Source of the DNA: Lingula anatina
Lineage: Eukaryota > Animalia > Brachiopoda
NCBI GenBank assembly: GCA_051362555.1
Contig: CM120645.1
Coordinates: forward strand, 23,898,934 to 23,962,933
DNA: 64,000 nucleotides
Reading direction: 5' to 3'
The translations under genes were made by a program, and so were the position numbers. Positions 42,401-63,627 of this stretch are shown here, piece after piece. The first letter of the stretch is position 1; each line of letters begins with the position of its first letter. The notes under the pieces were generated by a model. That model ran no database searches. It was not told the origin of the DNA and saw nothing but the letters and a program-made list of their open reading frames with translations.

Positions 42401-42922
42401 GGATGTCTGAAATGTGATGGCTGCCTTGCAGCGAGATTTGGGTGAAAGCTCGAGTTCTGTCAAGGGTGAGATTTTCTTTGAATTATAACTACTTTTTAAA
42501 TTATTGAACAGTACGTTATGATTACAGGGGTTAGTGTTTACAATCAAAAGCATGTTGTGTTAAACTGTTTCAATTAACTGTCTTCAAAGAATAAGACGTA
42601 TTTGACACTGGAACAAGATATGCAATTCTCGCCCCTCCCCACCTTCAACGTCAAGGATTCGAATTTTCCCCACATTAAATTGTGTGGTGTTTTTGATCAA
42701 TGTCTCTTCTATTTAGAGAACTTTGTTTGGTAGTTTACGCAATTGTTTATCGCCATCTTGCAAGAAATTTCAAGCCCATTGAAGTACATGTATATACTGT
42801 TATTATTTATGATTAACAAAATCATTAAAAAAAAATTACTCATCAAACTAACCTTGCAACCCTGCATGTTATTCACTGTTTCAGTGTAGCTACCTGCGTC
42901 ATACAAACAATTCCAGATTGTC

Positions 42923-45014
42923 ATGGAGACACCTACTGGTGACACAAATAAAAACAAGTCTGCTAATGCCAAGACTCGGAAAAACAGCTCGCCTGTCTTT
43001 TCTGCCTCCGCTTCCCTGCATGGAGCAGCCAGGTTGTTCTCGCGGTCAGTACAGGACTTGGGACAGCAGAAGAGAGGCTCACCTGCCCAAAACCTGAGGA
43101 GAAGTGCAAGCCCAAGGCTGCAAGAATGCCTTATAACAGAGAAGAAAGGTGGGAATTCATTTTTAACCTGAAAAGAAAAGCAGCTTTGGACTGTATCTTT
43201 TGATTTATCTTGGAATTGTTGAAAGTTGTGCACAAATATGGGACATGAGAAACTGAACACAATTTTTTCAAGCTGACCCTTGATTTCTGCTGTGTACCCA
43301 CACAACTCTTTACTAATTTCTCAGGGCTATTTTACTTTATATTCTTGAATTAGGCTGAAAGCATGTTAGGGGTTGTACAGATCAGAAGCATGGTCTGTTT
43401 CATTTGTCAGTTCAGCAGTTTAAAGGAAAATTCATTCTGAAAAGTAAAGCCAGGCAGGCAGAAAACTGGATGTACGGGGTGTTACAAAATTTTATTTTAG
43501 CCAGGAGAAGATAGCATTTATAATGAATACATTATTTTTCTTGTTTAGAAACAAACTTTGCTGCAATATGAAGTTTAACTAAAAAACTAATTAAAATTCT
43601 TTAATTTACATGCATTTTCAGATCGCAGTGTAGATCTAGGTCATGGTGACCCAGTTATTTCCAAACCTAGTGAAGCTGTCTCCATGGCGACCTGCCCAAA
43701 GAAGAGGCTGGGGTCGTGGTCCTCTTCCTCCTCCTCTGCCAACTCTGTACAATGTGACCCTCAGACGGGGGCCAGTATTGGAGGTGAGAAAGTGAACTAC
43801 ATGATTTTGTAGAATAAGATAGGGAACTCTTCCCAATGTTACTGTTTACCAGTAATAAGAACAGGTCTGCAGCGGCAATTTCAAGGGTGGAGGGGACTTT
43901 TTTTCTTTCTTTTTTGAAAAGTAAACTTTTTTGCCCCCTTAGTTGACCAACACCTAGATCAAATTTTGATGCAGTGAGGACAGCAATAATAATCTAAGCT
44001 CTCAGCATAATAAAAGAAACTGTTATTTTTCTAAGGCATGGGATTTTTTTTAATCTTTCAACTCTGTCTTGTTCATCTGCCATGTTGGATTCAATTTTAA
44101 GATTGCATGTGGGTCACTGAAGTTCAATAAGTGTTGTATTTAATTGACTTTTTGTTCTTTTTGAATGAAGAGATTTGGTATGTTTTATTAATGAGAGTAA
44201 GACTTCTAAATTAATTAATTGTTCTTATTATAATTGTAGAAGAAGCACCTGCCAGTCAAGAGATCTCAACTGTAGATGGCATTGGTGATGCAAGAGTAGT
44301 TGAAGTCACCTCAGCTGGCAATGAGACCAGTACAAACACCATGCTTCCTTCAGTCATCAGATCACTGGAGACGGCTCTAACACAGGAGCTGTGCAGTGAA
44401 GACCAGGTGGCTGACAAGGAAAACTCCTCCCAGTACAACCTGATGTTCAAGTCTCTGTGTTCCTCTCAGTTAGAGCCTGTTTTGTTCTCTGGGGAGTACA
44501 GTGTGTTGTCCAACCATTACCTGTGCCAGGTCGCTTACAAGGGAGAGGATTTCTCAAGTGTAGAGCACGCCTACCAAGTTTTAAAAGCACGTTTCCATGG
44601 GAAAGAGAAACTCGCAGACCAAATCCAGCATGCCAAGCGAGGGAGAGATGCAGAACGACTTGGTTCTCAGGTGGAGGAGTCAGACCTTTGGATCAGCAAG
44701 AGATGCCGAGTCATCAGGAAATTGTTGCAGTCCAAAAGTGATCTTTGTCCGCAGTTTAACATGGTTCTGCTGGACACAGGTGACCATCCACTTTGGCATT
44801 CTGTCACCTGTCCAGGGTGGGGCGTTGGACTGACTGAGGAAGATTTCCGCCGTGGGAGATGCCCAAGGGGAGGGAACTTGTTAGGAGTGGCCATCATGAA
44901 ACTGAGGAAATCTTTGCGGAACACAGATTCCAGTAAAATTGTAAAAGGTTAGAAATTACTGAATTTGTTCAGCCTGCTTTTGCCTAAACTGAGAGTAACA
45001 TTTTCTTTAAGGCC

Positions 45015-45050
<36 letters not shown>

Positions 45051-48000
45051 TTGTTTTGAAGCTCTTGCCATTTGTAAAGATTCCATTAATATTGCAGTAG
45101 CTGAGCTGTAGCAATAAATGGTTCTAATAAATGCAGCAAAGTCAGGAATGGAGAAAATTGTTTTATTTGCCAGTACTATTTAAAGTAGAAATATAAATGA
45201 TTTCTTTAATTTGAAGCAGAAAAGCTATCAGTAGTAAATGTCCAATTAGAACCTAACTAGTTCTGTTTGATAAAATATTTTTTTGACAATTACATATTTT
45301 TAACTACAAAAAATGTTCTTTTCAGATAAAACGTCACACAAGAAATCTCACAAAAAACTCAAGTGCAGCAAATCTCCGAAGTCCTTACTCCGTGTCAGTT
45401 CAACAGATAAAGGTACAACTGTGTATTGATAGAATTCCAGGGATATACATTTAGCAACCCCCTTAGATATTTTCTTTAGTGTGTACCTTGTATTTTATGG
45501 AGGCAAATTAAAATGATTCTTTTGCAGGAAAACATCTCATTTTAAGTTGTACCAGTGTGATATTGATTTTTCTGAATTATATAACAAATCACTGAAATTG
45601 TTTAGCTTGTAAGCTGAAATCACAAGTACACAGTTTTATATAATGACAAATACTTAATTATGATACCATCTTTTTGCCATCAGAACAACTTTTTGTATCA
45701 AAACTGAAATTTTAATGTAAGTACCAGTTGCGTACACTTTGGTATATATTATAATATATTTGACAGGGGATATTTTAGAATGTAATTACATTTATTCTTC
45801 AGACCGTGGTAGCTGTGAGATGGTTGAGAGGGATAGTACTGTCAGTGAGAGAAGAAGTCAAGGTCATCTGAAAAATGGTCAAGATTATGCTGAGGACACT
45901 CGAACTGTATTGTCTGGCCCGTTTAATGGACCAAGGGTGGACTTTGGTCAGTCTGTTGCTGACGGAGAGAGGGAAAGCATCTCACATGGCACTCGGGAAA
46001 CGAGTATGGACACATCTGCTGAGAAAATAGACCAAGAACTTATAAATACTAAAAGTTCAAATACAAGCAGGTCCAGTACAGGCAGTTCCAGTGGAAACAC
46101 ATCAGTGAGTAATAGCAGTTCCAATACAGTGGGAACAGACTATAATACCAGTGCCAGTAATGTTAGCAGTTCAAGAGACAACAGTAGTATTGAGACTCCG
46201 TCCTCTAAAACTATCACCCTGAGAAAGAAGAAAAAGAAGGGAAAAAGAAAGAAAACCGAGAAAAAACACCATGGACAGGGTGGATTGCCCCCTGAACCTG
46301 ATGTCAGAGAGGTCAGTTATGGAAGTGACAGTGTCAGAAACACTCAGCTGGCTGCCCAAATTGACCAGGGGTCAGTGAGATCTGGCCATCAATGCCAAGG
46401 ACTAATTGTCCAGAAAAAGTCTTCAGGTTTTGGCCGAGGAAGAGTGTGCTTCAAAATGAAAACACCGGGAAGAAGGAATTCTCTCGAACAGCAGATGCAT
46501 CTTCAAAATTTGCAAGAACAGCAGTTTCAGATTCAACAAAGAAATCAAAAGCAGGAAAAATGGGGTGAAAACCAACAGCAGCCACACTTACCGGTACATG
46601 ACTGTGAAATAGAGCAACCACAGGTACAATTACAACAAGAGACCTGTGCACAGGTCCCAGGCCAACATCCACAGGTAAAACAGAAAGAAGGGCAAAGTGG
46701 ACAACAAAAAGAACAGGAACACCATAGACCTACTGAAAATCCTGCCAAGGACTGGAGACAGTGGGGTCCAAAATGGGGGCCCAGACGTGGGAGAAAACCA
46801 CTGGCACAGATCCGAGACGGCACCTTGATGGAGTCCGGCAGCATGAAAACCAGCACTCCTAAACCTAAGACCTCCACTGTGCTCAGTCTACACCAGAGAT
46901 TGAGAGCTGGGGAAGGTGGACTGGGGTGTCTCAAGAGAGAGAAGAGCCTCCAGACAAGTACGCCATTCAAAGCCAATAGTGGTCCAATAACACAACAAAA
47001 TGGTGACTTCTTAAAAGATCAGACTTTGGAAACACTGCCAGTTGATTTTGTTGCAAATCCAGGCCAGGAAAACTGCAATGGATGGGAAGAGTTTATGCAC
47101 AACCAGGAAGGGAAAGCACATGGTTTACAAATTAATAACAATGCAGAGGTTGAGGACAGGAACCACTCTGTCTCTGACATCACCCTGTCACGCTGTAACA
47201 TTGGAGACGGTGACAATGACGGCTACGATGACAGTTGGCTCAGTAACAAAGACTCCAGCAATTCTGATCAGTTTAATGTCGTAACAAGCCACCAGGAGGT
47301 GCTAAGTCCAGCCTGGATACCAGTCAATTCCAGGATAAGCCCAGCTCTGAAACCTACAGCCACTAGAAGTGTGATTTGTGGTTCTTTGGGGGCAGCACCA
47401 GACCGCAGTGGCTATCCTCACAATAATTGGACCATGATGTCAAAGACGGAGAAAAATGGCGGAAATCCCAAAAGAAGGGTTGTCCCTGTACAGAAGGCTT
47501 ACAGCGACACTGCCCTGAAAAGATCAGATTCTAGTACAGTGTCCAGAAATGTCTCTTACATCCAACCTGTGAATAATCAGTCACATGACCAGTCACATGA
47601 TGGGTCACATGATCAGTCACATGATCAATCTTTTGATCAGCTGAGCACCTCCTCTGTGGACTGGTTTGAGGTGCAGGACAGCCCCTCTCGCCATATACAT
47701 TTCCAGAATACCTCCGGCAGCTACAGAAGTGTAGATGGAGCCACCAGTGATAGCAAACTGAGATATGGAAGCTGGGAAGAATATAATGAAAATAATGGTG
47801 GGACTTCAACGGAAATAAAAATGACACAGGGTGATGGTAATGACAATAGTTCTAGTTATAACAGTTGGGAAGAATACAATGACAAGGACAGTGTTCCAGT
47901 GAGGTTGTCATCAGTGACACCAGAGTGTATGTACAGAGAACAAGACTGGAGGTGGGGTGGCGGGGGCAGGATGAGTGACCCTGGTCCCCTGAGAAACCAA

Positions 48001-50194
48001 CTGATGACCATGAACAACCAAGGTCAGGTCACATTTGGCAGTGTGGGTGGTGCACAGACAGCAGCTGAGAACTCTGGTTCCAGGAAATCCTGGGGGAGAG
48101 GACGGGGGGAGGATGTGTGGAGGAGGCCTGTGGGGGGGTGGACAGCCACAAAATCATCGTCCAATCTGGAAACGGCAAAGACTCAGGGCTTTGGAAGTAG
48201 TTCATCTCTGAACTCAGAGGAGACTGGGGTGTGGAGCAAGGCGTTCTGTAAGAAGTTCAGCAGTGTTGATATTCCGTACATTGACACTCACTGTCATATT
48301 GACTTCCTGTTTCGAAGGACAGGCTTCAAGGGGACATTCGCCAAGTATAGATGTCAGAACGCGGCTACGTTTCCTGCCAGCTACGAGGGATGTGTGGCAG
48401 TGTTCTGTGAACCACATTCTTTTAAAGTTCAAGGTATGAAAATGATGGTTGTGTATTATTTTTGTTTTACAGGTGCAAAGAAAACATGTTTGGTAAATCT
48501 GATATCATATTGAAAGACTTACCTTTAACAACTGTGTGTAAAAGGGAATTTGTAAATTTTGACGCTGAATAAGAACTTAAATTTTTCAAATACTAGTTGC
48601 GGATCTTATGTATGGAGCTCATAGATATGTATCTCAGAAAATCTTTAAAAGAAAAAGATACAGATATTTAAGTAGGAGTTTTTAATGAATATTTTATTTC
48701 CTCAGGTGGTCTATGGCGTGATATAGTCCAGGAAGAGGGGGTGTGGGGTGCATTTGGCTGTCACCCTAAGTGTGCCACAGACTACACACTGGTGTCTGAC
48801 CAGGGGCTCCAGGCGTGTCTCCGTCACCCTAAAACAGTAGCCCTGGGGGAGATAGGACTAGACTACTCTGGGAAGTAAGTATATATTTAGACTGATGGAG
48901 ATAATTTTTGTTATTAAATCACTCCACTCCACTCCCACTGGCCCTGGGTGAGGTAAGACTAAACTTGATGTGAAAAGGGTGTTGGTGTGCAGTCGACTCC
49001 CTACAAGTAGCAGACGATGGCCTGTTTGAGTTGAGACTTCAGCTCTATGGAATACTGGTCTGTACTGCTTATAAAGATATCTTCCTTCCAAACAAGGCAT
49101 TTTATGGAAATCTCTACCTCATTATTTTGTAGGTTTGGTAGTTTGAAGGAGAAGCAGAAGCTTGTGTTTGTGAAGCAGTTACAGATGGCTATGGACAGAG
49201 GTCTGCCGCTGGTCATCCACTGTAGGGAGGCTGAGGATGACTGCTTTGAGATTATGAAGACAGTGAGTTCACTTCAGGAGATATTGTAGACCATCTTAAA
49301 TTACATGTACAGTTGTGACATATGAGCTGCTTTATTTGTTTGCATTAAAATACATATGTAAACCATATTAAGTTTAAAGTTGGCTTTGCTAGATAGACGC
49401 AGGACCTTTGTGGTGAAAATATCTTGTTTCCATAACAATGTCAGTAACATCTTCTAGATGGTTCCAAAAGACTGGAAGATTCACCGCCACTGTTTCACCA
49501 GAGACTGGCAGGAGGCGTCCCGCTGGGTGGCGTTCTTCCCTAACCTCTTTGTGGGTCTGACGCCACTGGTGACCTACAGTTCGGCAGTGGAGGTCCACCA
49601 GGTGGCCCGCTGTCTGCCCTTAGATCGTCTGCTGCTGGAGACGGACGCTCCGTACTTTGTGCCACATGGGGTGAGGCGGTGAACTTTGTCAGTAATGACA
49701 CCTTTGTTGTTTTACTCTCAAATATGATTCATTGGAAAGGTTTTATAAAGTTTTCCAAATACTCACACTACATTATTATGCTCTCCTGATCAACATGATA
49801 CAACAAAAGTAAATAATTGAAAGGAGTAAATAAACAGATGAATAAAAATTGTGGCATTGATTTATAAAATTATTACGAGTTACAACAACCCTTGTTGGAT
49901 CTATTTTTCTTCACATTTCAATTTTCTGTTATGTTGGGTATTCTCTGTTTTAGCTAGGTTGGGTATTTCTCTGTTTTCTGTTAGGCTTGGTATTCCTCCA
50001 TAGCAGTATTCTAAGAGTATATACACACTAAGACTGTATGCTCTGTGTTCCAGGTGCGGAGAGATGAGATGCAGTACTCTCACCCTGGTCTGGCTGTCGT
50101 CGTTGCAGACGAGGTGGCCATGTGGAAGGGCGTAACCACGCACGAAGTCCTTAAGGCATGCCGGGAAAATACCAGGAAAATGTACGGGATCTGA
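42923..50194 (+). CDS. TATDN2: TATDN2-like TatD nuclease with N-terminal NADAR domain and long disordered linker, about 1488 aa. Exons 42923-43148, 43622-43783, 44240-44947, 45326-45412, 45803-48433, 48706-48874, 49133-49262, 49458-49670, 50054-50194
   Basis: All introns are GT-AG with compatible phases (total 4467 nt). TatD motifs [57 protein letters not shown]. The FGCHP/IHRHCF forms and long N-terminus match the TATDN2 subfamily. Confidence 0.85.
44473..44916 (+). other. NADAR (YbiA/RibX, DUF1768) domain encoded within a single exon
   Basis: Motifs [26 protein letters not shown]...W, LLDTG...L, WGVG, G.NLLG.AIM.LR match the NADAR consensus. Confidence 0.8.
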
Positions 50195-50776
50195 GGTTGG
50201 ACAGTTCACTTGGAAAATAAGCAAGGGCAAATTACCATTGAAATGCATAAGAATTTCAAACAAGCATTAGCATATGTGAATACTGTAGACTTGCAGATTG
50301 CAGAGAAAAGGGCTCAGAGGAAAAAATGGATAGAATATCTTAGTATATTGTAGACTAAGGCACTGATACTATGTATGGGATTTTACATCATGTAACTTGA
50401 TATAGAGGTCAGAGAATTTTCTTTGGTTTTACTTGCTGGCTGATTATATATAGAAAAATAGCATGTATTATAGGTGGACTGATGTTGCCACTTTGGCCTA
50501 GGAAATAGTAGAAAATGAAGTTATTCTTGAATGAAATATGCCTTGTCAAGGTAAGAAATGTGTCTTTTATTTCCAGCTGTTGATGTTTTCCAAGTCCTTC
50601 CCCAGATGCTTGGAGCTGGAATAAGATAACTTCTGGGTATTATATCTTTGGTAATTTGTATATTGTAATTTGCATGCATTTAATTTCAGTATTCTAGTAC
50701 CGACATTTTTCTGATATTAACTATTCCGAGTGCCAATGACTCCTTGCATGTCAGTTGATTGTACAGATTCACTTAA

Positions 50777-50941: not shown

Positions 50942-51517
50942 GTAAGTATTGTTTAAGTGGACAAATATGAGGTGTCCGTTGTACAGCTACCCTCACTACA
51001 GTAATTACATATTCTAGAAAATGAAAAAAAATTCTTCTGTTTCTAATTCAAAGACTACAAAACTCCGTAAAAATACAGATACTTGGGTTTTATTTACTAT
51101 CATTCAAATATTACATATTATTTTAGCATTCTATAACAAATGCCATTGTAATTGTTTGTTTGTTATGAAAATTAAATAGTGTTAAATGGTCATATTCTTA
51201 TTTTATCTGTTACAGTTATTTTCATAGTTGGTTGAATTTTCTCTGTAACAAATGGATTTGTAACAGAAGTATATTGAAAATTTAATGAATAATTTTTGCA
51301 TAGTTTCAACAGGATTTTTCGTGGAGTGTTCAGGAATGAAAATCCCTCTTCATAATTACATATAGATCCCCTTTACTTAATCCGACTATATTTATTTCCA
51401 ATTCTGATTTTTACTGTTACAATCACTATGTCATACCTTTCTATGACAAATCCTTGGATAATAAAAAGGTTTACCATTATTTCACTACCCATTAGTCTAG
51501 CATCAAAGTTGTCCACA

Positions 51518-54500
51518 TTTTTATGTACAGACACAGATGTGTCTGTACATATTGCCATCACCTGCGTCTGTCGTCGCCGTCGTCGCCGATGGCGATGCCG
51601 ATGCCGATGCCGATGCCGTGCACTTTCCTTGTAAACACGATAAGTGGAACACAGTTTTATTTTTTGCTTTTATATTTACAGAGCTGATGAATATTCATAA
51701 TACGCAGGTCAAGTTCGAAAATCAGCATGATCGGGCCATTATAGTAGATGTTATGCTGTTTTTTCACTTTTCAGCATATATGCAACCCTGTAAACACATT
51801 TTAAGGAAAACCGTTAGGCCAATTGTCATTAAACTCACAGGAGTGGTCAATCTTACTAAAACGCAGGTTGAGTTCGAAAATCAGCATAATCGGGCCATTA
51901 TTTTAGAAGTTATGCTGTTTTTTCACATTTCCTCAGATTCAGTTCTTAGGCATGTTAACAGTCTTATCATTTAACTAATAAGATACATAAAAGTGTTTGT
52001 TTAACATTTCCTGCATCTTTACAACATTGTTAGTTGATTATGTAAAAATGATGGTAAACTTGTTATCGTGTATTGTGTTATAAAGAATCAAAAATGGAAA
52101 TAAACTCATATCATTGCAGTTTGTCATATTCAATAATTCAGTATGTTCAGAATCTCAGAATGGAAGAAATTGGACATTTTACACTATTCTGTTGATATTT
52201 TTCCCATCTCATCAATTTTCTTAGTTGATCATATAAAAATGGCAGTAAACTGTTAATTTTGTTTTGTGTAAAAAAATTGTTAAAAATGGGAAAAAAACCC
52301 ATTTCAGAACAGTGCTGTCTTGTTTCACATTTCTACAGATTCAGTTCTTAGGCATGTTAACACTCTCATTATTGAACTAATAAGATACATAAAAGTGTTT
52401 GTTTGACATTTCCTTCATCTTTACAACCTTGTTAGTTGATTATGTAAAAATGATGGTAAACTTGTTATCGTGTATTGTGTAATAAAGTGTCAAAAATGGA
52501 AATAAACTCATATCATTGCAGTTTGTCAGATTCAATCATTCACTATGTTCAGAATCTCAGAATGGAAGAAATTGGACATTTAACACTGTTCTATTGATAT
52601 TTTTCACATCTCATCAATTTTCTTAGTTGATCATATAAAAAATGGCAGTATCCTATTAATTTTGTTTTATGTTAAAAAAGTGTTAAAACAGGAAATAAAC
52701 CCATTTCAGAACAGTGCAGTCTTGTTTACATTTTGGCATTTTTAAGGTGTGACTTTGAAGTTCCATGGGCCTGAAGACCTTTGCTAGTCACATTTTCTGA
52801 ATATCCATAATACTAATATTTTATTATTAAAATTGATGGTCATTATGCTGTCAAACATTATGTAATATTGCATCAAAATTTGAAAAAAAACCTATTTTGG
52901 GCACTGCTCCCATGATGACCATTTAAGAAAAACCATGTCACTTACTGTTCTCAAACAGTACAGTTAATATGTACAGATGTGTCTGTACATATTGCCATCA
53001 CCTGCGTCTGTCGTCGCCGTCGTTGCCATCACTGTCGCTGTCGCCGGCGCCGTGCACTTTCATTGTAAACACGATAAGTGGAAGAAAGTTTTACTTTTTG
53101 GCTGTATATTTACAGAGCTGCTGAATATTCATAAAATGCAGGTCAAGTTCGAAAATCAGCATAATCGGGCCATTATTGTAGAAGTTATGCTGTTTTTTTA
53201 CTTTTCAGCATATATGCAACACTGTAAACACATTTCAAGGAAAACTGATAGGCTTTTTGTCATGAAACTCACAGGAGTAATTTATCTTACTATAACGCAG
53301 GTCAAGTTCGAAAATCGGCAGGATCGGTCCACTATTTTAGTAGTTATGCTTTTTTTTTTCACTTTTCAGCATATATGCAACAATGTTAACACAATATAAG
53401 AAAAACAGATAGGCCAATTGTCATTAAACTTACAGGAGTGGTCATTCCTGCTAAAACGCAGGTTGAGTTCAAAAATCAGCATAATCGGGCCATTATTTTA
53501 AAGAAATGCAGTTTTTTCACATTTCCTCAGATTCAATTCTTAGGCATGTAAACAGTTTCATTATTGAACTAATAAGATACGTAAAAGTGTTTGTTTGGCA
53601 TTTCCTGCATCTTTGCAACATTATTAGTTGATTATGTAAAAATGATGGTAAACTTGTTAACGTGTATTGTGTAATAAAGTGTCAAAAACGGAAATAAACT
53701 CATATCATTGCAGTTTGTCAGATTCAATCATTCACTATGTTCAGAATCTCAGAATGGAAGAAATTGAACATTTAACACTGCTCTATTCATATTTTTCCCA
53801 TCTCATCAATTTTCTTAGTTGATCATATAAAAACGGCAGTAAACTGTTAATTTTGTTTTTTTTTTTTAATTGTTAAAAATGGAAAAAAAAACCATTTCAG
53901 AACAGTGCTGTCTTGTTTCACATTTTGGCATTTTCAAGTTGTGACTTTGAAGTTCCATGGGCCTGAAGACCTTTGCTAGTCACATTTACTGAATATCCAT
54001 AATACTAATATTTTATTATTAAAGTTGATGGTCATTATGCTGTTAAACATTATGTAATATTGCATCAAAATTTGAAAAAAAACTATTTTGGGCACTGCTC
54101 CCATGATGACCATTTAAGAAAAACCATGTCATTTACTGTTCTTAAACTTACAGGAAAGAAACATGGGACTAAAATACAGCTTCAGTAGGAAACACAGTCT
54201 GTTTGGTAATTCTTACTGCCAGTTAAACAGTTATTTTGTGAAAATTAAATTTTTCACATATTGGCATTTTCAAGGTGTGACTTTGAAGTTCCACGGGCTT
54301 GAAGACCCATGCTAGTCACATTTTCTGAAAATCCATGATACGTATATTTTATTATTAAAAATTGACGGTCATTATGCTGTTAACCATTATGTAATCTGGC
54401 ATCAGAATAGAAGAAAACACAATTTTGGGTGCTGCTGCCATGATGACCATTATGGGAAAACCATGTTACTTATGATTGCCAAACTTTCAAAAAAGAAATA

Positions 54501-55294: not shown

Positions 55295-56073
55295 TCAGGT
55301 ATTGAGCACTGTATCCTTTGATGACTTCCGAACCAGATCAAGGTGCATACGCCCAAAAATGCGACCGAAGGACTCGAAGCAAGGGTCAGAAAATGTACGA
55401 ATGCACATTCCAAATACTGTCCCAATTGCCTTGAGTTGAATTCCGTAGCTTTTTATAGAGGGCACCACGCTCCACACATTACAGAAGGTGAGACAGGCAA
55501 AGTGAATGCCCCAGCAAAAGGCACATGGGACGCCACAGATGGCACTCAATATGCGGTAAGTCCATTTTTTGGTTGCACTGAAGGTGGCAAAACTTGTCCG
55601 CCATATTGTCTGAAAGCTATGGGTACCTTCTGGTTCTGCTATCACATCCTCAAAGAGAACCTAACAGAGGGAAGAAGAATTGCAATTCTATTTTTTTAGA
55701 TATTTGTTATTAAACCTGAAGTTCAAATGTAAAAGATTTACCATTTTTACTGTGGAATTCAAAGATGTCAAATGTTGACAATATTCAAACTGTTTGGATT
55801 TCAGGGTAAACCAAAAGCAAGAAGTTTGGGGAGGGTTCCAATTTATCAACTTTTCCCGTCCCCACATTGCAGAGCGGAGCATACCTTCAGATGGTCATTC
55901 ATGTTGGTAGGATCACGGTCAGTCATGTCCAGTGCGAACGGTGCTATCACCTTGAAGTTAGATGGTGGCTCCATCTTGTGGTCTGTTGGTTCACTGTTCA
56001 GGGAGACATTGGAGCCAAATTGAGGCTTTGCTGTAATGTCAGCAGATCCAGATTTTTCTTCTGTATCAGACAT
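55295..56073 (-). CDS. CAV: Caveolin, 184 aa; coding exons 56073-55885 and 55660-55295
   Basis: Spliced product ...LDMTDRDPTNMNDHLK|VLFEDVIAEPEGTHSF... contains the caveolin signature FEDVIAEP, followed by the scaffolding and hydrophobic membrane segment. Confidence 0.95.
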
Positions 56074-58527
56074 AGTGGCAGTCTACACACTTGTCAACTG
56101 GACAACTGCTTGAAAACCTTAGTATAAATACCTGAAAACTATCACAGTTTCAAACTTACAGTGAAAGTCTTCAAATCAAAGGCACTTTCTTGAGATACCC
56201 GATGGTCAACTCTGCACAATTTTGCAAGTTTGAAAAAAATCTTCCTCCTATGGAAAAGTCCCAGTACTAACTTCTAAAGATGGGTGTTGTTGTATTGCTG
56301 GTGGTAAAAGAGGGAGGAGCATGAATTAAGAGAGGGCTGCTACAGAGAGGTGTACAATCATGTTGCATTCATTGGTCCACATTTACCAGATGCCACCGCT
56401 GTGACCTGCACCACTTGAAAAAATTAACAGCGTTTATTGGATTTATTTAAATTATTTAAAAAGTGCTTTCACATGATAGATTCATGTTTTATTGGGCATA
56501 ATGTCAGTAACAAAACTATATATTGTGTTTGGAGCCTCTATTTGTCCCCCTCAAAGAAGTGCATGGCCTCCATATCTTTATGAAGGTTATCAGTCAACCT
56601 TTACTGTGCACCATCTGGTGGAATACTGATATAGAGGGCAAATCGGGTTATATTTTAACAATGTTATCAGCAATAAAATTTGGCACTTCAGGCAATTGTA
56701 ATAGATAAAAGTGGTGATGATCAAGATTTTGTATCAAAATATTTTATTTTTCAGGTTTGATCATATTTAAGGAAATTGAAAATGCTAAAAATAAGATGCT
56801 TTTCAGGATAAAAAATATGACATTGGGACAATTAAAAATGCAGGCAGGATAATTTTATATTTTTGAAAATTTTTATCGTCTTCAGATTTTAACGAGAGCA
56901 ATTACACTCTTCAATTGTTAAGACCAGGGAGATACTATGTTATAGACATCTCAGCATGTACACAGTACTTCAGCAGTACCCAGTCAAAGTCAAGAACCAC
57001 CTGTCTGATCTGAAATTAGTACCAGGGTGTGTTCACAATAAATATATTGTACTAGCTAGTGCGCCCCAACTCCCAAGAAAGCTCATGCTGAATGTAATCT
57101 TCCTGGTGTTGAGTAGAAAATACAGTAAAAACTGGTGATAATACAACTACGTTGAAAACGAGAGGTGTGAATCTGTTCACCTGATTGCCTTCAGCAAGAG
57201 TATCTGTGGAGTTACTATGCAGTAGCTAGTTGGACAGATATAGTGTAAACTGGCCCTATTGGTATCTATAAGTAATATTGGGTCACCAGGACACATGGTA
57301 GTTAACTGCTGTTTTCCTGTTAATGATTAAAGAAACATTTAATCGTGACACAGTTTTTGATATCAGTACATGTATGTTTTGTTTTACACAGCTTCTAGGA
57401 AAGCCTTGCACCCATCAAATGTGTAGGATCCTAGAGACAGCAACACATCAACTAGGAGTTCCTTTCATGCACTAATCATGTATACCTCTTTTATAAACAT
57501 TTTACTTTTTACTAATGATGTTGTGAAGACATGAATTTACATGATGCAAATCCATAGTTGGCAAAAACGTAGTTCTATGCAGTTAATAATTGTTCAGTAA
57601 CAAATAACACCAAAGGTATGGAAAATACTGCCATTTCTTTATTTATCATATTTTTACATCTTAAATTTATGTGACATTGGTTATTTATCATGTTAAGAGA
57701 AATCATATTTAAATTTTAACTTCTGACAAATGAAGGGCATTTCCACTACAATTTCTACTGGGTCCTTCATCTGGATTACACAGTGCTGGTACATGATAAC
57801 TGTGCTTCAAAATGTCACCTCAAAAAACACTAAAGACGAACTTGAAACAAGGATGTAATGCAGTAAAAATAAATGATAAAATCAAATAAACTTAAATTGT
57901 AAATCTGACCTTGCTGAATCTTAAACTTGACCTGCATTATGCTACGACAAATAAATCGGGCTACAGTAAAACCTGTAGATTTACTTCCTTTAAGTATTAT
58001 ACCAAGAAATATTACCAAGAAATATCTCTCATTTTCATAACATGACAAATTGCTCCAGCTAATTTTCAGTAAAAAAGATACACCCTTCCAAAGTTATTGC
58101 AGAAACAAGACGAGTGCAAATTCCTGGCACAAAAGGCTTGGACTATAGTGACAGCTTTATTTGTATAAACATTGACCATTTCCTTTTCAATCCTTTCTTG
58201 TCAATTCATCACTTGCATCCCTTTATATTATCCTTTCATTACTTCAACAAAGATACAATATGATCTAGGCTTGATATTCTGTAAATATTTTATTTTTATC
58301 AAATTCACATTCCTGTCACTGTATCTTTGACAAAAAGATTATGATGTAGTATCATCTCAACTTTTGTCTTTATGAATTAAATCAAAGCTCAAAGCCAAGA
58401 TCCTCCTCATAAGTTACAGTATTTATAGTTCTGTTCTCTTTGTCCAACTTCCTCAAGACAACTAATCATAAGTGAACATTCTGCCATCTGGTGACTCCCT
58501 CCAGTGCCATGTACCACAATGCAGGAA

Positions 58528-61500
58528 CTAGGTCACTTTCTTCTTCTTCCTCCCTGGTCCTCCGCCTCCACCCCCTCGCTTCCCCTTCCCACCTTTCTTC
58601 TTCTTGTCCTTACATTTCTTACAGAACCACTGCTCATCATCGCTGGGAGGGTTGACGATACCCACACAGACCCTGAAATATCAAATTGAATGCTAGCTGT
58701 GACAGTTGTCTTTGTAAAACTGGAAATGAATATTGCCTGCTTTTATTTGAAATTCCTACCAATCTATTTCAGAAATGACTTCATCATTTTCAAACATAAA
58801 TCAAGGTAACTTCAATATCAATAAGTTCACTGCCTTGAATAAAAAAATAAATAAATAAAGGGAGTGATTTTTCATCAAACAATATTACATTGCTATGCTA
58901 CAGATTTCCTTTCTTTTCTGCTTAGTAATAAGACACCTTTTGCTGGATCCTCCCTCTCCTACAAATCCAACTTCATTCCTGGCCAAGTCATAGGATTTTG
59001 GACTATCTTCAATAATTTTGATGATTGCTGCCATGCCATTTTAACCAATCAAAACTTACCAGTGATACCAGTCGTCATGGTTTCAATGTCATTTTAACCA
59101 ATCAAAACTTACCAGTGATACAAGTTGTCATGGCTACAATGTCATTTTAACCAATCAAAACTTACCAGTGATACCAATCGTCACAGCCATCACAGCCAAT
59201 CATTGGACTGCCGTCATCTTGTAGTTTACAGTTGGGGCAAATCCAGATGGTATTGCCTGCTTCGTCCTAAAGTATAAGAAACATTTATTACAGACTAGAA
59301 AGTATTATGTAACGCAGGGTCCCACCCAGATGGTGTGGCAGTATCCTGAGTTAATTTTCAGTTATTTCACCAACAAGGCATATAGATGAGGATTCAGTTA
59401 ACAAACTGATAAACATAAAATTGAGATGAAATGTAATGTAGCAGTCAATCAGATATTCTTACCACAAACTGGTACTGTCCTATGGTTTCCGTGACAACAA
59501 CACATTTCTGGGCAGCTGCTTTTGACTTGAGGGCAGGGGGTGGCATGGGGGGTACCACAGGGGGTGAGAGGGGTGCCTTGGGCACTCTGGGGGGTGAGGG
59601 GGGTGGAGAGGGTGATGATTCAGGAGAGAAGTGGAAGGGGGACAGAGAGGTAGCAGAGGGTGGGGTTTTGGCTCTGGTCACCCGGGGCGGTGAGAAGGGG
59701 GTGGGGGTCTTAGAGGCCTTGGTGGGGGACTTGAGGGGTGGGGGTGGGGGTATGGGTGCCGCCTTTGGCTCTGGTCTATCCACTCTGGGGGTTGATGCAG
59801 CCCTGGGGGGTGAGGGTATTGACAGAGGGGGTGGCTGATCCCTTGGTGGCATTGGCTTGATAACTCTGGAATACACAATGCACAAATATCCCCATTAGCC
59901 TACATGTTGGACTGGAGTATTGTCCAACAGCGATTACTGGTGTAACTTCTAATAGTCAAAGGTCTGAAGTTTTCTTCTACACATGATTTGTGCAATGAGA
60001 TATTATGAAGGCTCATTTAAGATATTTAGAATTTCTAACAGAAATGATTTAGGGTAGTAGGACAAAAAGTAGTATGAAATGGGTCCATGGCCTTAAACCA
60101 CCAAGTAAATATAATTGAATTTTCGAATTTAAATCAGAAAGTCATGTTTACTTTACTATGCAATCCTGTTTGAAGGAATCAACTTACAGTTTTGGTATCT
60201 CAGGTTTCTCCAGTTTTGTTAATATCTCGTCCCGTAGCGAGGATGATGTTTTCTTTGTCATCTCTGAAGCAGAGTCTGACTGTGAAGCTGCCGTAGGAGA
60301 GGAACTGACGGAGGGCGTTGAGCCACCCAATTTGAACTTCAGTTTTGGCACAAAAGGTTCTTCCTTCCCCTGGGAAGATTTGAAAAAAAATATGGAATGG
60401 AACTCTAGTGTTACCTGTTTCCACCATTCTTAACTTGCCAGTAATATTTTGTGCATAGATTTTTCATGATGCTGGTAATTAACTTAAAGGAACATAAAAT
60501 ATATTAAGTCCTAAATGGAGATTCATGTCTAAAAAAATAACTTGACTAAATTGTGTTAGATGTTTGATAAGTTAAAAGTGACTGGCACCAGATGATTACT
60601 TTTATAAATGTATTCCTCATAAATAGAACATTAATGCTATTTGCTATCAACACCAATGAAGTTTTGAGAACATGTTCATTAAAAAAACAAATTCACTACA
60701 GCTGGTGATGTACACAGAGTGAAATGTCACTCTCTCACCTTATTTTCTTCCTCTCTGGATTTCTCTTCTTTTCTCTTTTCTTTCTCCTTGTCTTTGTGCC
60801 TGTCTTTATCCTTCTTTCTCTCCTTTTCTTCTTTTCTCTTTTCTTTCTTTTCACTCTTCTCTCTATCTCTGTCCTTGTCCTTTTCTTTCTTCTTCTTTTT
60901 CTTCTTGTCTTTATCTTTCCTGTCCTTTTTCTCCTTCTTGTGCGACTTCTCTTTATCCTGAAAATAATTTCCAAAATATTTTATAATGCAGCTCCTTCAT
61001 GTTGCAGATTTTTTAATTTAACATTTTCCAGATGAAACTTATGAAAGCTGATCAAAACTATTACACACACACTCACTAAAATTCCTGAAAAAGCCAAAAC
61101 AAATTTTTTCACATTATCATTTCAACAGATCTTCACAATGACTCTCAACACAAACACTTTGGACTGAAGTCGACAACCAAGAAAATATCGTTAATTTGTC
61201 CCATAAATGTCTGAAGAGCACTCATATCTTAATTAAAAATCATCCTGTACACTTAGCCAGAAAGTTATTAGTTTATACATTCACATCACAGCAACCTGAT
61301 AGCAACCCTATTGCTTTACCTTTATTTTCCCACCCTCCAGTTTAATTGGCTTAATCTTGAGCGTGGAATCTTCCGTCCCGCTGACCCTCTGGATGGTCAG
61401 TTTGGTTGGAGACGGGTAGTTAAACTCTGAGCTAGACGCTTGACCCATGACGGCTGTGTCCGAGGCCTGAGGCTGCTGAGGCGGCAGAGTCTTGACCACG

Positions 61501-63627
61501 CTGGGTTCTAAAGATGGTGACCTCATAGGAGAGGATGAAAATGATGAGTGGACAGACGGCGACCGACTGATTAAATCTTTTAATGGGAGTTTGATTCCTA
61601 GTCCTTGTCCAGTCAGGGGAGACCCCGGAGTCGCTGAGGAACTGTCTTCTTTCACACCACTGGATTTTTGCTTTAATTTCTTTTTTAGTTTCTTTTTGAT
61701 GTCTGAGTCTTTAGATTTTTCTTTCTTTTCCTTGCTTTTGTCCTTATCTTTGTTGCTCAGAGATTTGTCTTTTTTCTTCTTAATTTTGGTCCCAGTTTCT
61801 CCAGATGTAATAGTCAGGGTAGGAACCTTGGGGGCCTCAGCTGGTTTATCATCAAATTCAAATGCGTAGGGATCTTTTGTAACTTTTTCTTTCTCCTTAA
61901 CTTTTTCTTTCTCTTTTTCCTTTAATTTTTCCTTCTCTTTTTCCTTATCTTTCTTAGCTACTTCCTGTTCATGTTCCATATTAGCTCTGCGAATCACCGC
62001 ATCTATAGAATCGTCAACAGAAGTCCGCCATGTTGGCACTGGTGGCGGTTGTGTCTCTTGATCTGATTGGTCAGATTTATCAGCTTCCGCCATTGTTCTC
62101 TTAATAGCTGCATCAATACTGTCATCGTAATTTTGAAGCCGTGCTCTTTTTGCAACGTTAACATCCTCATCAATGACTAACATTTCAGGTTCAGGGGAAT
62201 CATCCCTAGGGGGCAGTGGTGAGCTGCTTGCTATTGGTGCTGTCTTGGTAGTTTCAGTAAGCGCTTTGGCTAGATGAGAAGACTTTGAAGCAGCTGCACT
62301 ACCAGGGGAAGAGGGCGTCGTCTTCTTACTTTTACCTTCTCCCTTTGGACTTTTAGCCCTCACGGGAGATTTTGATCGAGATGGAGACTTTGGAGGCTTA
62401 GCAGTTTTGGAACTCAACATAGCCTTAACGACTTCTGAAGGTTTGGGGGTGAGTGGTGATTTTGGCACATTAGGTGGTGGTGGTGTTGGTGAAGGAAGTG
62501 GTGCTGTCGGAACAGGAGAAGGTGGCGCTGCTTTTGTCACCACCACAGGTGGTGCTGATGGTGCTAATGGCACCACTGGGGAAGTAAGTGGTCTCATCAA
62601 TAAACTGGATTCAGGTTTGGAGGGTGTGGTAACTTCATTCTGGACCTTCTCTGCTGGAGCCTTCTCTGGGGTGGTCTCCATTTTCTCTTCTTTTCTCAGC
62701 GGCTGTGATTTGATTGGTTGTTTTTGAGGCGCTGGTGGGGTACGAGCATCTGGGAGTTTTCCATGCCGCATAGGAGAAATGAGTCCCTGGTCTGTCATGA
62801 TGACATTTTTTATTTCATATCGAGAACCAAGCACTTCATCTGCCAGTCTGAAACAGGAAACAAATGATGTTTTTTTTTTTACAAACCTCTAAATCATCAG
62901 ATTTATTTGACAATTGTTATTTCTATTTAAATTTATCAATTATATGAAAAGTTCTTACTATTTGTGATACAACATGAGTACTGACCCTTTAAAATAAAGG
63001 AGATGATAAAACTACCTTTGTTTCTTTGCTGGCTGTTCTGCAGTAGGACTGGTCAACATTCTCTTCAATGTGTCTGAGCCAGCACTGCCATCTGGTGGCA
63101 AAACTTCACCATTCTGCTCACCAGGGGGAGGCACCTTCTTGGTGGGGGTCTGTGCAGGCTCTTCAAATTCTAACACAAAAAGTTATGGATAATTTAATGA
63201 ACATCTCTGTTAAAAGGTATTAATAATTTTTGACTCCCATGACCATAAGATGATATCAGAGAAAAATGTTTAAGAAATGACAACAATGAAAATCTAAAAA
63301 TTCAAACCTTCAGTTAGAAAATCAAAGCAACTTATACATAATATGGAGGCAAAAGTCTAATCATGAAAAGGCCGTTCAAATCACCTTCCATGTCAGGATA
63401 CATCAGCGGCAGGTGCTCATCAATCGCTTCATCCCTGTTCTGCACTTGTTGACTCTTCCGCGGAGGAAACTGGAGCCTGTTTTCTTTGGGAGCAGGGAAT
63501 GCTGGGATGTCATGTGCGAACACTGGTAGGTCCACATTGTTCACATACTCGTCAAGCTCACCCAGGACAATGCCAAGGTCACGGAATGCAAGGCCAAGGT
63601 CATCCAAGTTGGGTTCTGTTCTTCCAA
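58528..63627 (-). CDS. TAF3: TFIID subunit TAF3, 5'-partial. Exons 63627-63385, 63169-63016, 62847-61320, 60957-60739, 60369-60188, 59865-59463, 59266-59166, 58672-58528
   Basis: Histone-fold end GRTEPNLDDLGLAFRDLGI, Pro/Lys-rich middle, and C-terminal PHD finger IWICPNCKLQDDGSPMIGCDGCDDWYHWVCVGI...WFCKKC. All introns are GT-AG and in phase. Confidence 0.93.
59034..59185. repeat. 53-bp tandem repeat (x3) spanning the end of the TAF3 PHD exon and its splice donor
   Basis: cttaccagtgatac (minus strand gtatcactg|gtaag) at 59055, 59108 and 59161. Confidence 0.9.

What the first reader, a model, noticed from the sequence alone, without database searches (positions are those of the whole stretch)
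44240..50194. NADAR domain fused in frame to a TATDN2-type nuclease
Seen: a complete NADAR domain sits in a symmetric (phase 1-1) exon that splices in frame, via a long low-complexity linker, to a TatD domain with intact metal-binding motifs. Established: NADAR proteins are N-glycosidases (YbiA/RibX act on riboflavin intermediates; DarT1-associated NADARs remove ADP-ribose from guanine in DNA). TatD enzymes are 3'-5' exonucleases, some with AP-endonuclease activity, and TATDN2 is linked to R-loop RNA degradation. Vertebrate TATDN2 is not known to me to carry NADAR. Inference: a single-chain 'recognise or remove base adduct, then cut' module for nucleic-acid repair or anti-toxin/antiviral defence, possibly acquired by exon shuffling or capture from a mobile or viral source.
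Basis: partly seen in the sequence, partly recalled or inferred. Interest (0 to 1): 0.76.

Follow-up and report, generated by a model that had tools for sequence, protein, structure and literature searches.

The report
NADAR domain grafted onto brachiopod TATDN2
In this brachiopod, the gene for the genome-maintenance nuclease TATDN2 is spliced to include an extra domain of the kind that elsewhere strips ADP-ribose off guanine bases, a pairing seen in no other animal checked; the extra domain likely came from a jumping gene and, having lost part of its active site, likely works only as a slow eraser of that mark.

Summary
The fusion is real. The gene is the TATDN2 orthologue of Lingula anatina (98% to RefSeq XP_013409413.1). 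It has nine coding exons (42923-50194, 1488 aa, no stop); the finding missed the first two. RNA reads from three runs show all eight coding junctions, including both sides of the NADAR exon (18 and 23 reads); no skip junction was listed. The TatD catalytic residues are intact. The NADAR domain folds well (pLDDT 96.8) and keeps the Glu and Lys essential in other NADARs. It has His for the last-strand Glu and lacks the DxxW Asp and a conserved Lys. Only Lingula has NADAR among 120 long TATDN2-like proteins, and none of 149 NADAR relatives has TatD. At least 63 of those 149 carry retrotransposon-ORF1-type partner domains, so capture from a LINE is likely, but trees do not resolve the donor. The 'remove adduct, then cut' idea is weak: NADARs restore an intact base, and human TATDN2 barely cuts DNA. 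Best reading: a captured, slowed guanine-ADP-ribose eraser tethered to an R-loop RNase; a pure binder or a passenger are close rivals. I found no paper on it. A lineage-restricted new variant; interest 0.45.

The parts
42885..43148 (+). Coding exon 1 (ATG at 42923; in-frame stop just upstream at 42887-42889); spliced from a 5' UTR exon ending at 42465
   Evidence: junction reads 3+5+3 (UTR) and 8+8+4 (to exon 2); stop-to-stop frame starts at 42890
43622..43783 (+). Exon 2, phase 1-1, low complexity; the RefSeq model P0001 starts at a Met in this exon
44240..44947 (+). Exon 3, phase 1-1, aa 130-366: about 75 aa spacer plus an intronless NADAR domain; skipping it would keep the frame
   Evidence: junction reads 18 and 23
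44464..44937 (+). NADAR/YbiA-fold domain (about aa 205-362). Kept: E238, K245, W280, R284, W323. Changed: last-strand Glu to H316, DxxW Asp to C320, Lys to E268, Arg to S272
45326..45412 (+). Exon 4, phase 1-1, Lys/Ser-rich
45803..48433 (+). Exon 5, phase 1-1: about 820 aa Ser/Gly/Gln-rich arm (inferred disordered), then the start of TatD with the DxHxH motif from 48283
46222..46254 (+). Basic stretch at aa 535-545, a candidate nuclear localisation signal (inferred)
48706..48874 (+). TatD exon 6, with E1320 (equivalent of human E593)
49133..49262 (+). TatD exon 7, with H1357
49458..49670 (+). TatD exon 8, with H1380, H1382, E1432 and D1434 (the last two are equivalents of human E705 and D707)
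50054..50194 (+). Last coding exon with the stop; reads continue as a 3' UTR to about 51300

Best explanation
This is the Lingula TATDN2 gene, spliced and expressed with an intronless NADAR domain near the N-terminus of its long low-complexity arm; the domain was likely captured from a retrotransposon ORF1 and likely acts as a slow eraser of ADP-ribose on guanine in single-stranded DNA or RNA, clearing the way for the TatD domain, which is predicted to degrade the RNA strand of R-loops as human TATDN2 does. Shown: the exon structure, the junction reads, the two domains, the intact TatD catalytic set, the changed NADAR residues, and absence of the fusion in the other proteins checked. Inferred: nuclear location (basic stretch at aa 535-545), R-loop RNase activity (orthology), retroelement origin (company kept by the nearest relatives), and residual hydrolase activity (residues kept). 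The two domains are about 850 aa apart, so the coupling would be co-localisation by tethering, not hand-off of a substrate. The NADAR product would be a normal guanine, not an abasic site.
For: Fusion. TATDN2: nine motif residues (D1222, H1224, H1226, E1320, H1357, H1380, H1382, E1432, D1434) are invariant in 38 of 38 TATDN2-like proteins compared, and the window groups with annelid and mollusc sequences (SH-aLRT 98). E1320-E1432-D1434 have the same 112+2 spacing as human E593-E705-D707. Fold: pLDDT 96.8; Foldseek best hits 8BAU (E 7e-9, TM 0.78) and YbiA 2B3W. Residual activity: the Glu and Lys equivalent to those essential in E. coli C7 NADAR and T4 AdfN are kept. His at the last-strand position occurs in phage NADARs, which are active, and T4 NADAR was weaker than C7 NADAR on RNA. 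36 of 167 related domains also have His. Constraint: of the 40 read-versus-window differences listed, 1 falls in the 708-nt NADAR exon (K to R) and 39 in 2189 nt of linker (Fisher p 3e-4; only 40 of 220 rows were visible). Origin: 63 of 149 nearest NADAR proteins (55 of 94 that are 300 aa or longer) carry an RRM-like region, zinc knuckle, PHD or SGNH esterase. In locus L001 such an ORF is followed by a frame with a weak endonuclease match (E 0.019). Oyster Tx1 LINE ORF1s carry NADAR (PMC12477816). Substrate plausibility: eukaryotic CARP-1 homologues, guanine ADP-ribosyltransferases, occur in Bivalvia and other animals (PMC12945103).
Against: The DxxW Asp (D in 118 of 167 relatives, C in 1) and the K75-equivalent (K in 130 of 167, E in 3) are lost, and the residue before Trp (Phe or Tyr in 123 of 167) is Gly; only 13 of 167 relatives lack both the Asp and the Lys. 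Across three Lingula versions, variable residues are 7 of 151 in NADAR, 65 of 859 in the linker (p 0.23) and 3 of 273 in TatD (p 0.04): NADAR is less constrained than TatD and not distinguishable from the linker. The other 119 TATDN2-like proteins work without NADAR. The donor is unresolved: placement moved between trees, AU tests rejected none of three placements, including a non-retroelement-like group (p 0.67, 0.60, 0.65), and no ORF1 or ORF2 remnant flanks the exon. No guanine ADP-ribosyltransferase was shown in Lingula (genome not held).
Confidence: 0.4

Rival explanations
1. The NADAR domain is catalytically dead but kept as a reader: it binds ADP-ribose, modified guanine or single-stranded nucleic acid and helps recruit the RNase.
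For: Loss of the Asp, the Lys and the last-strand Glu together, while the fold and core residues are kept. [quoted passage not shown] Human TATDN2 needs its N-terminal arm for R-loop binding.
Against: The Glu and Lys proven essential elsewhere are kept, and His-type phage NADARs are active. The lost Arg and Asp are phosphate contacts in 8BAU, so ADP-ribose binding would be weakened as well.
Confidence: 0.22
2. The exon is a near-neutral passenger: a retroelement fragment exonised into a phase-1 intron of an arm that tolerates anything, now slowly decaying.
For: Found in one lineage only. TATDN2 arms range from 133 to 2098 aa and share no detectable sequence among 20 invertebrate arms compared. 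Other models carry sporadic extra domains, such as reverse transcriptase in Babylonia and RING in Physella. Protein-level variation is not different from the linker. The active site is eroded.
Against: The frame is open with no stop or shift in three versions although no relative is above about 41% identical. Family-invariant residues are all kept. Few differences fall in the exon in the read tables. The exon is included at high rate.
Confidence: 0.25
3. A captured retroelement module turned against retroelements: the ORF1-derived domain steers the RNase to LINE ribonucleoproteins or their RNA:DNA intermediates in the germ line.
For: ORF1-type company of the relatives. Medaka Tatdn2 is expressed mainly in gonads (PMC12709183). 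Read counts differ about 50-fold or more between sample sets (tissues unknown).
Against: The RNA-binding and multimerising parts of ORF1 are absent from the exon. There is no direct evidence of targeting.
Confidence: 0.08
4. One reading: a glycosylase-plus-AP-endonuclease repair chain in which NADAR excises a damaged base and TatD cuts the abasic site.
For: NADARs are N-glycosidases, and TATDN1 and TATDN3 have AP-endonuclease activity (PMC10085689).
Against: On nucleic acids NADARs were shown to remove ADP-ribose from the base, not the base from the sugar. Human TATDN2 has only minor abasic activity. The TatD domain here is TATDN2-type.
Confidence: 0.05

Closest known systems
Human and medaka TATDN2 (PMC10711561, PMC12709183, PMC10085689)
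   Same: Group II HxH TatD domain with the same catalytic Glu/Glu/Asp spacing, at the end of a long low-complexity arm with a basic stretch; 44-50% identical to vertebrate TATDN2 over the domain.
   Different: A folded NADAR domain sits in the arm; none of the vertebrate or other invertebrate proteins checked has one.
YbiA-family NADARs: Phytophthora NADAR (8BAU), E. coli YbiA (2B3W)
   Same: Fold (TM 0.78 and 0.75) and the residues equivalent to E43, K50, W89, R93 and W133.
   Different: E125 is His, D130 is Cys, K75 is Glu, R79 is Ser; fused to a nuclease, not stand-alone.
NADAR-bearing ORF1 of Tx1 LINEs (Crassostrea gigas) and Pol of Ectocarpus Gypsy elements (PMC12477816)
   Same: The nearest sequence relatives are largely proteins with ORF1-type partner domains; the domain is intronless.
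   Different: Here it is a spliced exon of a host gene, without RRM, zinc knuckle, esterase or ORF2 remnants; identity to any relative is 41% or less.
Phage gp30.3/AdfN NADARs (PMC11257639, PMC11125620)
   Same: His in place of the last-strand Glu, with the first Glu and Lys kept.
   Different: No Pfam Phage_30_3 match at E 0.1; the His is shared with many animal retroelement-like NADARs and is probably convergent (inference).
C. elegans SNA-3 (PMC9303266)
   Same: An animal nuclear protein that uses NADAR domains in RNA metabolism; one of its domains lacks the catalytic residues.
   Different: Three NADARs, no nuclease domain, nematode-wide and essential.

Membership tests
TATDN2 | TatD domain with the Group II HxH motif | tested here: met
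   D1222-x-H1224-x-H1226, invariant in 38 of 38 compared; definition in PMC10085689
TATDN2 | Catalytic residues equivalent to human E593, E705, D707 | tested here: met
   E1320, E1432, D1434, same spacing
TATDN2 | Long N-terminal low-complexity arm, often with a nuclear localisation signal | tested here: met
   about 1200 aa upstream of TatD, Ser/Gly/Gln-rich, basic stretch at 535-545; disorder inferred, not computed
TATDN2 | Closer to TATDN2 than to TATDN1 or TATDN3 | tested here: met
   The hits that carry a TATDN name are all TATDN2, 279 bits or more; human TATDN3 47.6 bits and TATDN1 37.3 bits in PDB. The tree held only TATDN2-like rows.
TATDN2 | Mg-dependent degradation of the RNA strand of R-loops | not testable with these tools
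   needs an assay
NADAR superfamily | YbiA fold | tested here: met
   Pfam 73.4 bits; model pLDDT 96.8; Foldseek 8BAU and 2B3W
NADAR superfamily | First catalytic Glu and phosphate-binding Lys (E43, K50 of 8BAU) | tested here: met
   E238 and K245
YbiA subfamily | Glu in the last strand (E125 of 8BAU) | tested here: not met
   H316; definition in PMC11125620
NADAR superfamily | Asp three residues before the conserved Trp (D130 of 8BAU) | tested here: not met
   C320; no acidic residue between H316 and W323
DarT1-associated (BC4488) NADAR | Asp in the last strand, extended fold, operon with DarT1 | tested here: not met
   His in that position; 8BAT matches only at E 0.95
NADAR superfamily | Hydrolysis of guanine-ADP-ribose | not testable with these tools
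   needs an assay
LINE ORF1 with NADAR | RRM, zinc knuckle, PHD or esterase partners and a downstream ORF2 | tested here: not met
   none in the protein, and no ORF1-family match elsewhere in the window: it is a host exon, not an element
LINE ORF1 with NADAR | Descent from retroelement NADARs | tested here: inconclusive
   63 of 149 relatives have ORF1-type partners; tree placement is unstable and AU tests reject nothing

The most novel reading that the evidence does not exclude
Lingula has domesticated a retrotransposon's guanine-ADP-ribose eraser and wired it to its germ-line R-loop RNase. That would be the first animal nuclease with a built-in base de-ADP-ribosylase, and it would imply that guanine ADP-ribosylation of R-loops or RNA is an endogenous mark in lophotrochozoans and a front in the host-retroelement conflict.
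Probability: 0.2. Interest if true: 0.8.

Novelty: new variant of a known kind. Interest (0 to 1): 0.45.

Why it matters
Why animals and their retrotransposons carry NADAR domains is open: vertebrates lack them and no endogenous animal substrate is established in the papers I read. A host gene that has taken a NADAR into a nuclease of known R-loop and germ-cell function gives a concrete hypothesis for the substrate (ADP-ribosylated guanine on R-loop strands) and a ready assay. It would also be a clean case of domain domestication from a LINE ORF1. The limits: it was seen in one genus only, the active site is partly eroded, and the architecture already sits, uncommented, in RefSeq and UniProt.

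Tried and rejected
Annotation artefact or two separate genes: rejected by junction reads on both sides of exon 3 and continuous depth. Obligatory skipping: rejected; no skip junction was listed, and at most 2 reads per run could be hidden, so inclusion is at least about 77% in X1-X3 (my arithmetic from the listing threshold). Widespread architecture: NADAR in 1 of 120 listed TatD hits of 765-2436 aa (165 found, 120 listed), none in 28 invertebrate proteins rescanned with Pfam, best E 0.38 for a custom NADAR profile on 119 arms; TatD in 0 of 149 NADAR relatives and in 1 of 18 long hits of a NADAR profile search, the Lingula protein itself. No other brachiopod or phoronid was among the named hits, so the age of the fusion is unknown. 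Viral donor: no confirmed hit in viral contigs; structural hits are distant. Donor by phylogeny: unresolved (these trees used 171, 65 and 48 rows, the last two hand-picked subsets). The run search listed no indexed RNA holder, which is not evidence either way. The ESM Atlas returned only generic NADAR clusters. No whole genome was held, so Lingula's own retroelements and ADP-ribosyltransferases could not be searched. The YbiA mutagenesis paper PMC4477702 was not held. Literature searches for NADAR+TatD (3 papers, all unrelated by title) and for any two of Lingula/NADAR/TATDN2/YbiA (20 of 29 listed; none pairs NADAR with TATDN2) found no description. No complex prediction was run, because no binding between the domains is claimed. 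Supplements were not read; alignments in the supplements of PMC11125620, PMC12945103 and PMC12477816 could include Lingula sequences.
Full report
Observation. The sequence and a script give nine coding exons on the + strand: 42923-43148, 43622-43783, 44240-44947, 45326-45412, 45803-48433, 48706-48874, 49133-49262, 49458-49670 and 50054-50194. All introns are GT-AG and the product is 1488 aa without an internal stop. Pfam finds NADAR in exon 3 (E 3e-20, 73.4 bits, cut-off 35.1) and TatD_DNase in exons 6-8; a local TatD profile also covers the end of exon 5 and exon 9. Exon 3 is phase 1-1 and could be skipped in frame, but exons 2, 4 and 5 are also 1-1, so the symmetry is compatible with exon gain and does not prove it.

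Expression. Nine RNA runs with the same species label were listed and eight were laid. X1, X2 and X3 gave 616, 739 and 633 reads, nearly all in one orientation, and showed every coding junction: into exon 3, 3+6+9 reads; out of exon 3, 4+9+10; exon 4 to 5, 12+9+17; TatD junctions 8 to 49 per run. No skip of exon 3 was listed. Depth over the NADAR exon (10-20) is like that over the linker (12-39). X4, X5, X6, X7 and X9 gave 2-12 reads; whether this reflects tissue or sequence distance cannot be told. No single read spans both domains.

Identity. The NADAR exon is 98% identical to RefSeq XP_013409413.1 of Lingula anatina (P0001), which has both Pfam domains. A second RefSeq protein (P0270, XP_013385348.1) is in the same cluster. 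The three versions are about 95% alike in the linker and 99% in TatD: probably alleles or haplotypes, though a recent duplicate is not excluded. Both RefSeq models begin 96 aa into my model. The TatD domain is TATDN2: 44-60% identity to animal TATDN2-like proteins, only weak matches to human TATDN3 and TATDN1, nine motif residues invariant in 38 of 38 compared, and placement with annelid and mollusc sequences. E1320, E1432 and D1434 match human E593, E705 and D707 in spacing. Human TATDN2 degrades the RNA of R-loops, needs its disordered arm for binding, and has no appreciable DNase activity (PMC10711561, passages). Medaka Tatdn2 is expressed mainly in gonads (PMC12709183, passages).

Distribution. 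Of 120 listed TatD hits of 765-2436 aa (165 found), only P0001 has NADAR, by precomputed Pfam and by a profile built from the relatives (best E 0.38 on the other 119 arms). A Pfam rescan of 28 invertebrate ones agrees. None of the 149 nearest NADAR proteins from 1.84 billion representatives has TatD. A profile search among long proteins gave 18 hits, with TatD only in P0001. No other brachiopod or phoronid was among the named hits. These word-seeded searches can miss distant cases.

The NADAR domain. AlphaFold2 gives pLDDT 96.8 and Foldseek ranks 8BAU and YbiA first. Mapping through the alignment to 8BAU (two-residue numbering offset) and its published contacts (PMC11543638, passages): E43, K50, W89, R93 and W133 are kept as E238, K245, W280, R284 and W323. 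E125 is H316, D130 is C320, K75 is E268 and R79 is S272. Among 167 related domains the E125 column is Glu in 107 and His in 36, the D130 column is Asp in 118, and the K75 column is Lys in 130. His here is the phage pattern, and T4 gp30.3/AdfN is active and depends on the same Glu and Lys (PMC11125620, text parts 1-2 of 6; PMC11257639, passages), though weaker than the C7 enzyme on RNA (PMC11833690, passages). The Asp is probably one of the YbiA-critical residues; I infer this from the D343/W346 spacing chosen for mutation in SNA-3 (PMC9303266, passages), since the original paper was not held. The site is therefore altered, neither intact nor plainly dead. Evidence on selection is mixed. Protein variation among three versions is 7 of 151 in NADAR, 65 of 859 in the linker and 3 of 273 in TatD (NADAR vs TatD p 0.04, NADAR vs linker p 0.23). 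In the read tables 1 of 40 listed differences lies in exon 3 against 39 in the linker (p 3e-4), but only 40 of 220 rows were shown and the choice of rows is the tool's.

Origin. No relative exceeds about 41% identity. Of the 149, 47 have a zinc knuckle (0 of 119 TATDN2 controls), 31 an RRM-like region, 21 an SGNH esterase and 4 a PHD finger; 63 have at least one (the RRM and SGNH profiles were seeded from these same proteins). PHD and esterase domains are known ORF1 modules of LINEs (PMC4120745, abstract); that RRM and zinc knuckles are too is from that paper's keywords and from recall. In metagenome locus L001 a degraded ORF of the zinc-knuckle family is directly followed by a frame with a weak endonuclease match (E 0.019). 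NADAR in oyster Tx1 ORF1 is in print (PMC12477816, passages). Against certainty: the Lingula branch is long; it fell weakly near zinc-knuckle types in one tree, with His types in another (87/77), and unresolved once the His column was removed, on the side of the retroelement-like rows (SH-aLRT 94). AU tests rejected none of three placements. No element remnant flanks the exon. A viral donor has no close support, although NADARs occur in invertebrate RNA viruses (PMC9503650, passages). I put retroelement capture at about 0.6.

Mechanism. [quoted passage not shown] The product is an unmodified base, so there is nothing for an AP endonuclease to cut, and TATDN2 is not much of one. The more coherent coupling is co-localisation: the arm brings the protein to R-loops, the NADAR removes or binds ADP-ribose on single-stranded guanines, and TatD degrades the RNA. 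I give the slow eraser 0.40, a passenger 0.25, a non-catalytic reader 0.22, anti-retroelement targeting 0.08 and the glycosylase-AP chain 0.05. All functional steps are inferred.

Novelty. Searches for NADAR with TatD, TATDN2 (25 of 98 listed), NADAR with ADP-ribosylation (30 of 355 listed) and Lingula/NADAR/TATDN2/YbiA pairs (20 of 29 listed) showed no description of the fusion, and earlier scan notes had none. Earlier notes on LINE ORF1-NADAR fusions in other genomes agree with the proposed source, but they are unchecked leads. The architecture exists in RefSeq as an uncharacterised protein. Verdict: real, expressed, lineage-restricted; a new variant of a known kind; interest 0.45.

Noticed in passing
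window 3500-40700, + strand: Tandem array of about 12 related, apparently single-exon ORFs of about 260-280 aa with a hydrophobic N-terminus; several are broken by stops or frame changes. Three copies scanned gave no Pfam family beyond one E 0.099 hit; the ESM Atlas best score was 0.87, a lead only. An unnamed expanded family, possibly secreted.
   Followed up: partly
window 55295-56082, - strand: Caveolin gene downstream of TATDN2, on the opposite strand (Pfam E 4.5e-39).
   Followed up: partly
window 59437-62888, - strand: Pro/Lys/Glu-rich frames of a larger gene; no Pfam hit for the 525-aa frame. Unidentified.
   Followed up: partly
window 50195-50508: Read depth drops in this part of the 3' UTR and reads have loose ends at 50508: the sampled animals carry different sequence here, probably an indel.
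   Followed up: no
window 42923-43685: RNA junctions support a 96-aa N-terminal extension missing from both RefSeq models.
   Followed up: yes
proteins P0121, P0173, P0265, P0122, P0157: Other large multi-domain proteins with NADAR: an RS-rich 2914-aa protein with three NADARs, two preceded by zinc knuckles; a Haliotis protein with seven; a Paralvinella protein with two. Host capture of NADAR modules may be recurrent in marine invertebrates.
   Followed up: partly
proteins P0013, P0029, P0075, P0101: Other TATDN2 models carry sporadic extra domains (RVT_1, RING, PF04218, PF18697); some may be gene-model artefacts.
   Followed up: no
L001 553-1979: Degraded LINE-like element: RRM-like region and NADAR in ORF1, directly followed by an endonuclease-like frame.
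   Followed up: yes
window 51500-53400: Two similar copies of a repeat element downstream of the gene (similar frames at 51501-51974 and 52968-53399).
   Followed up: no
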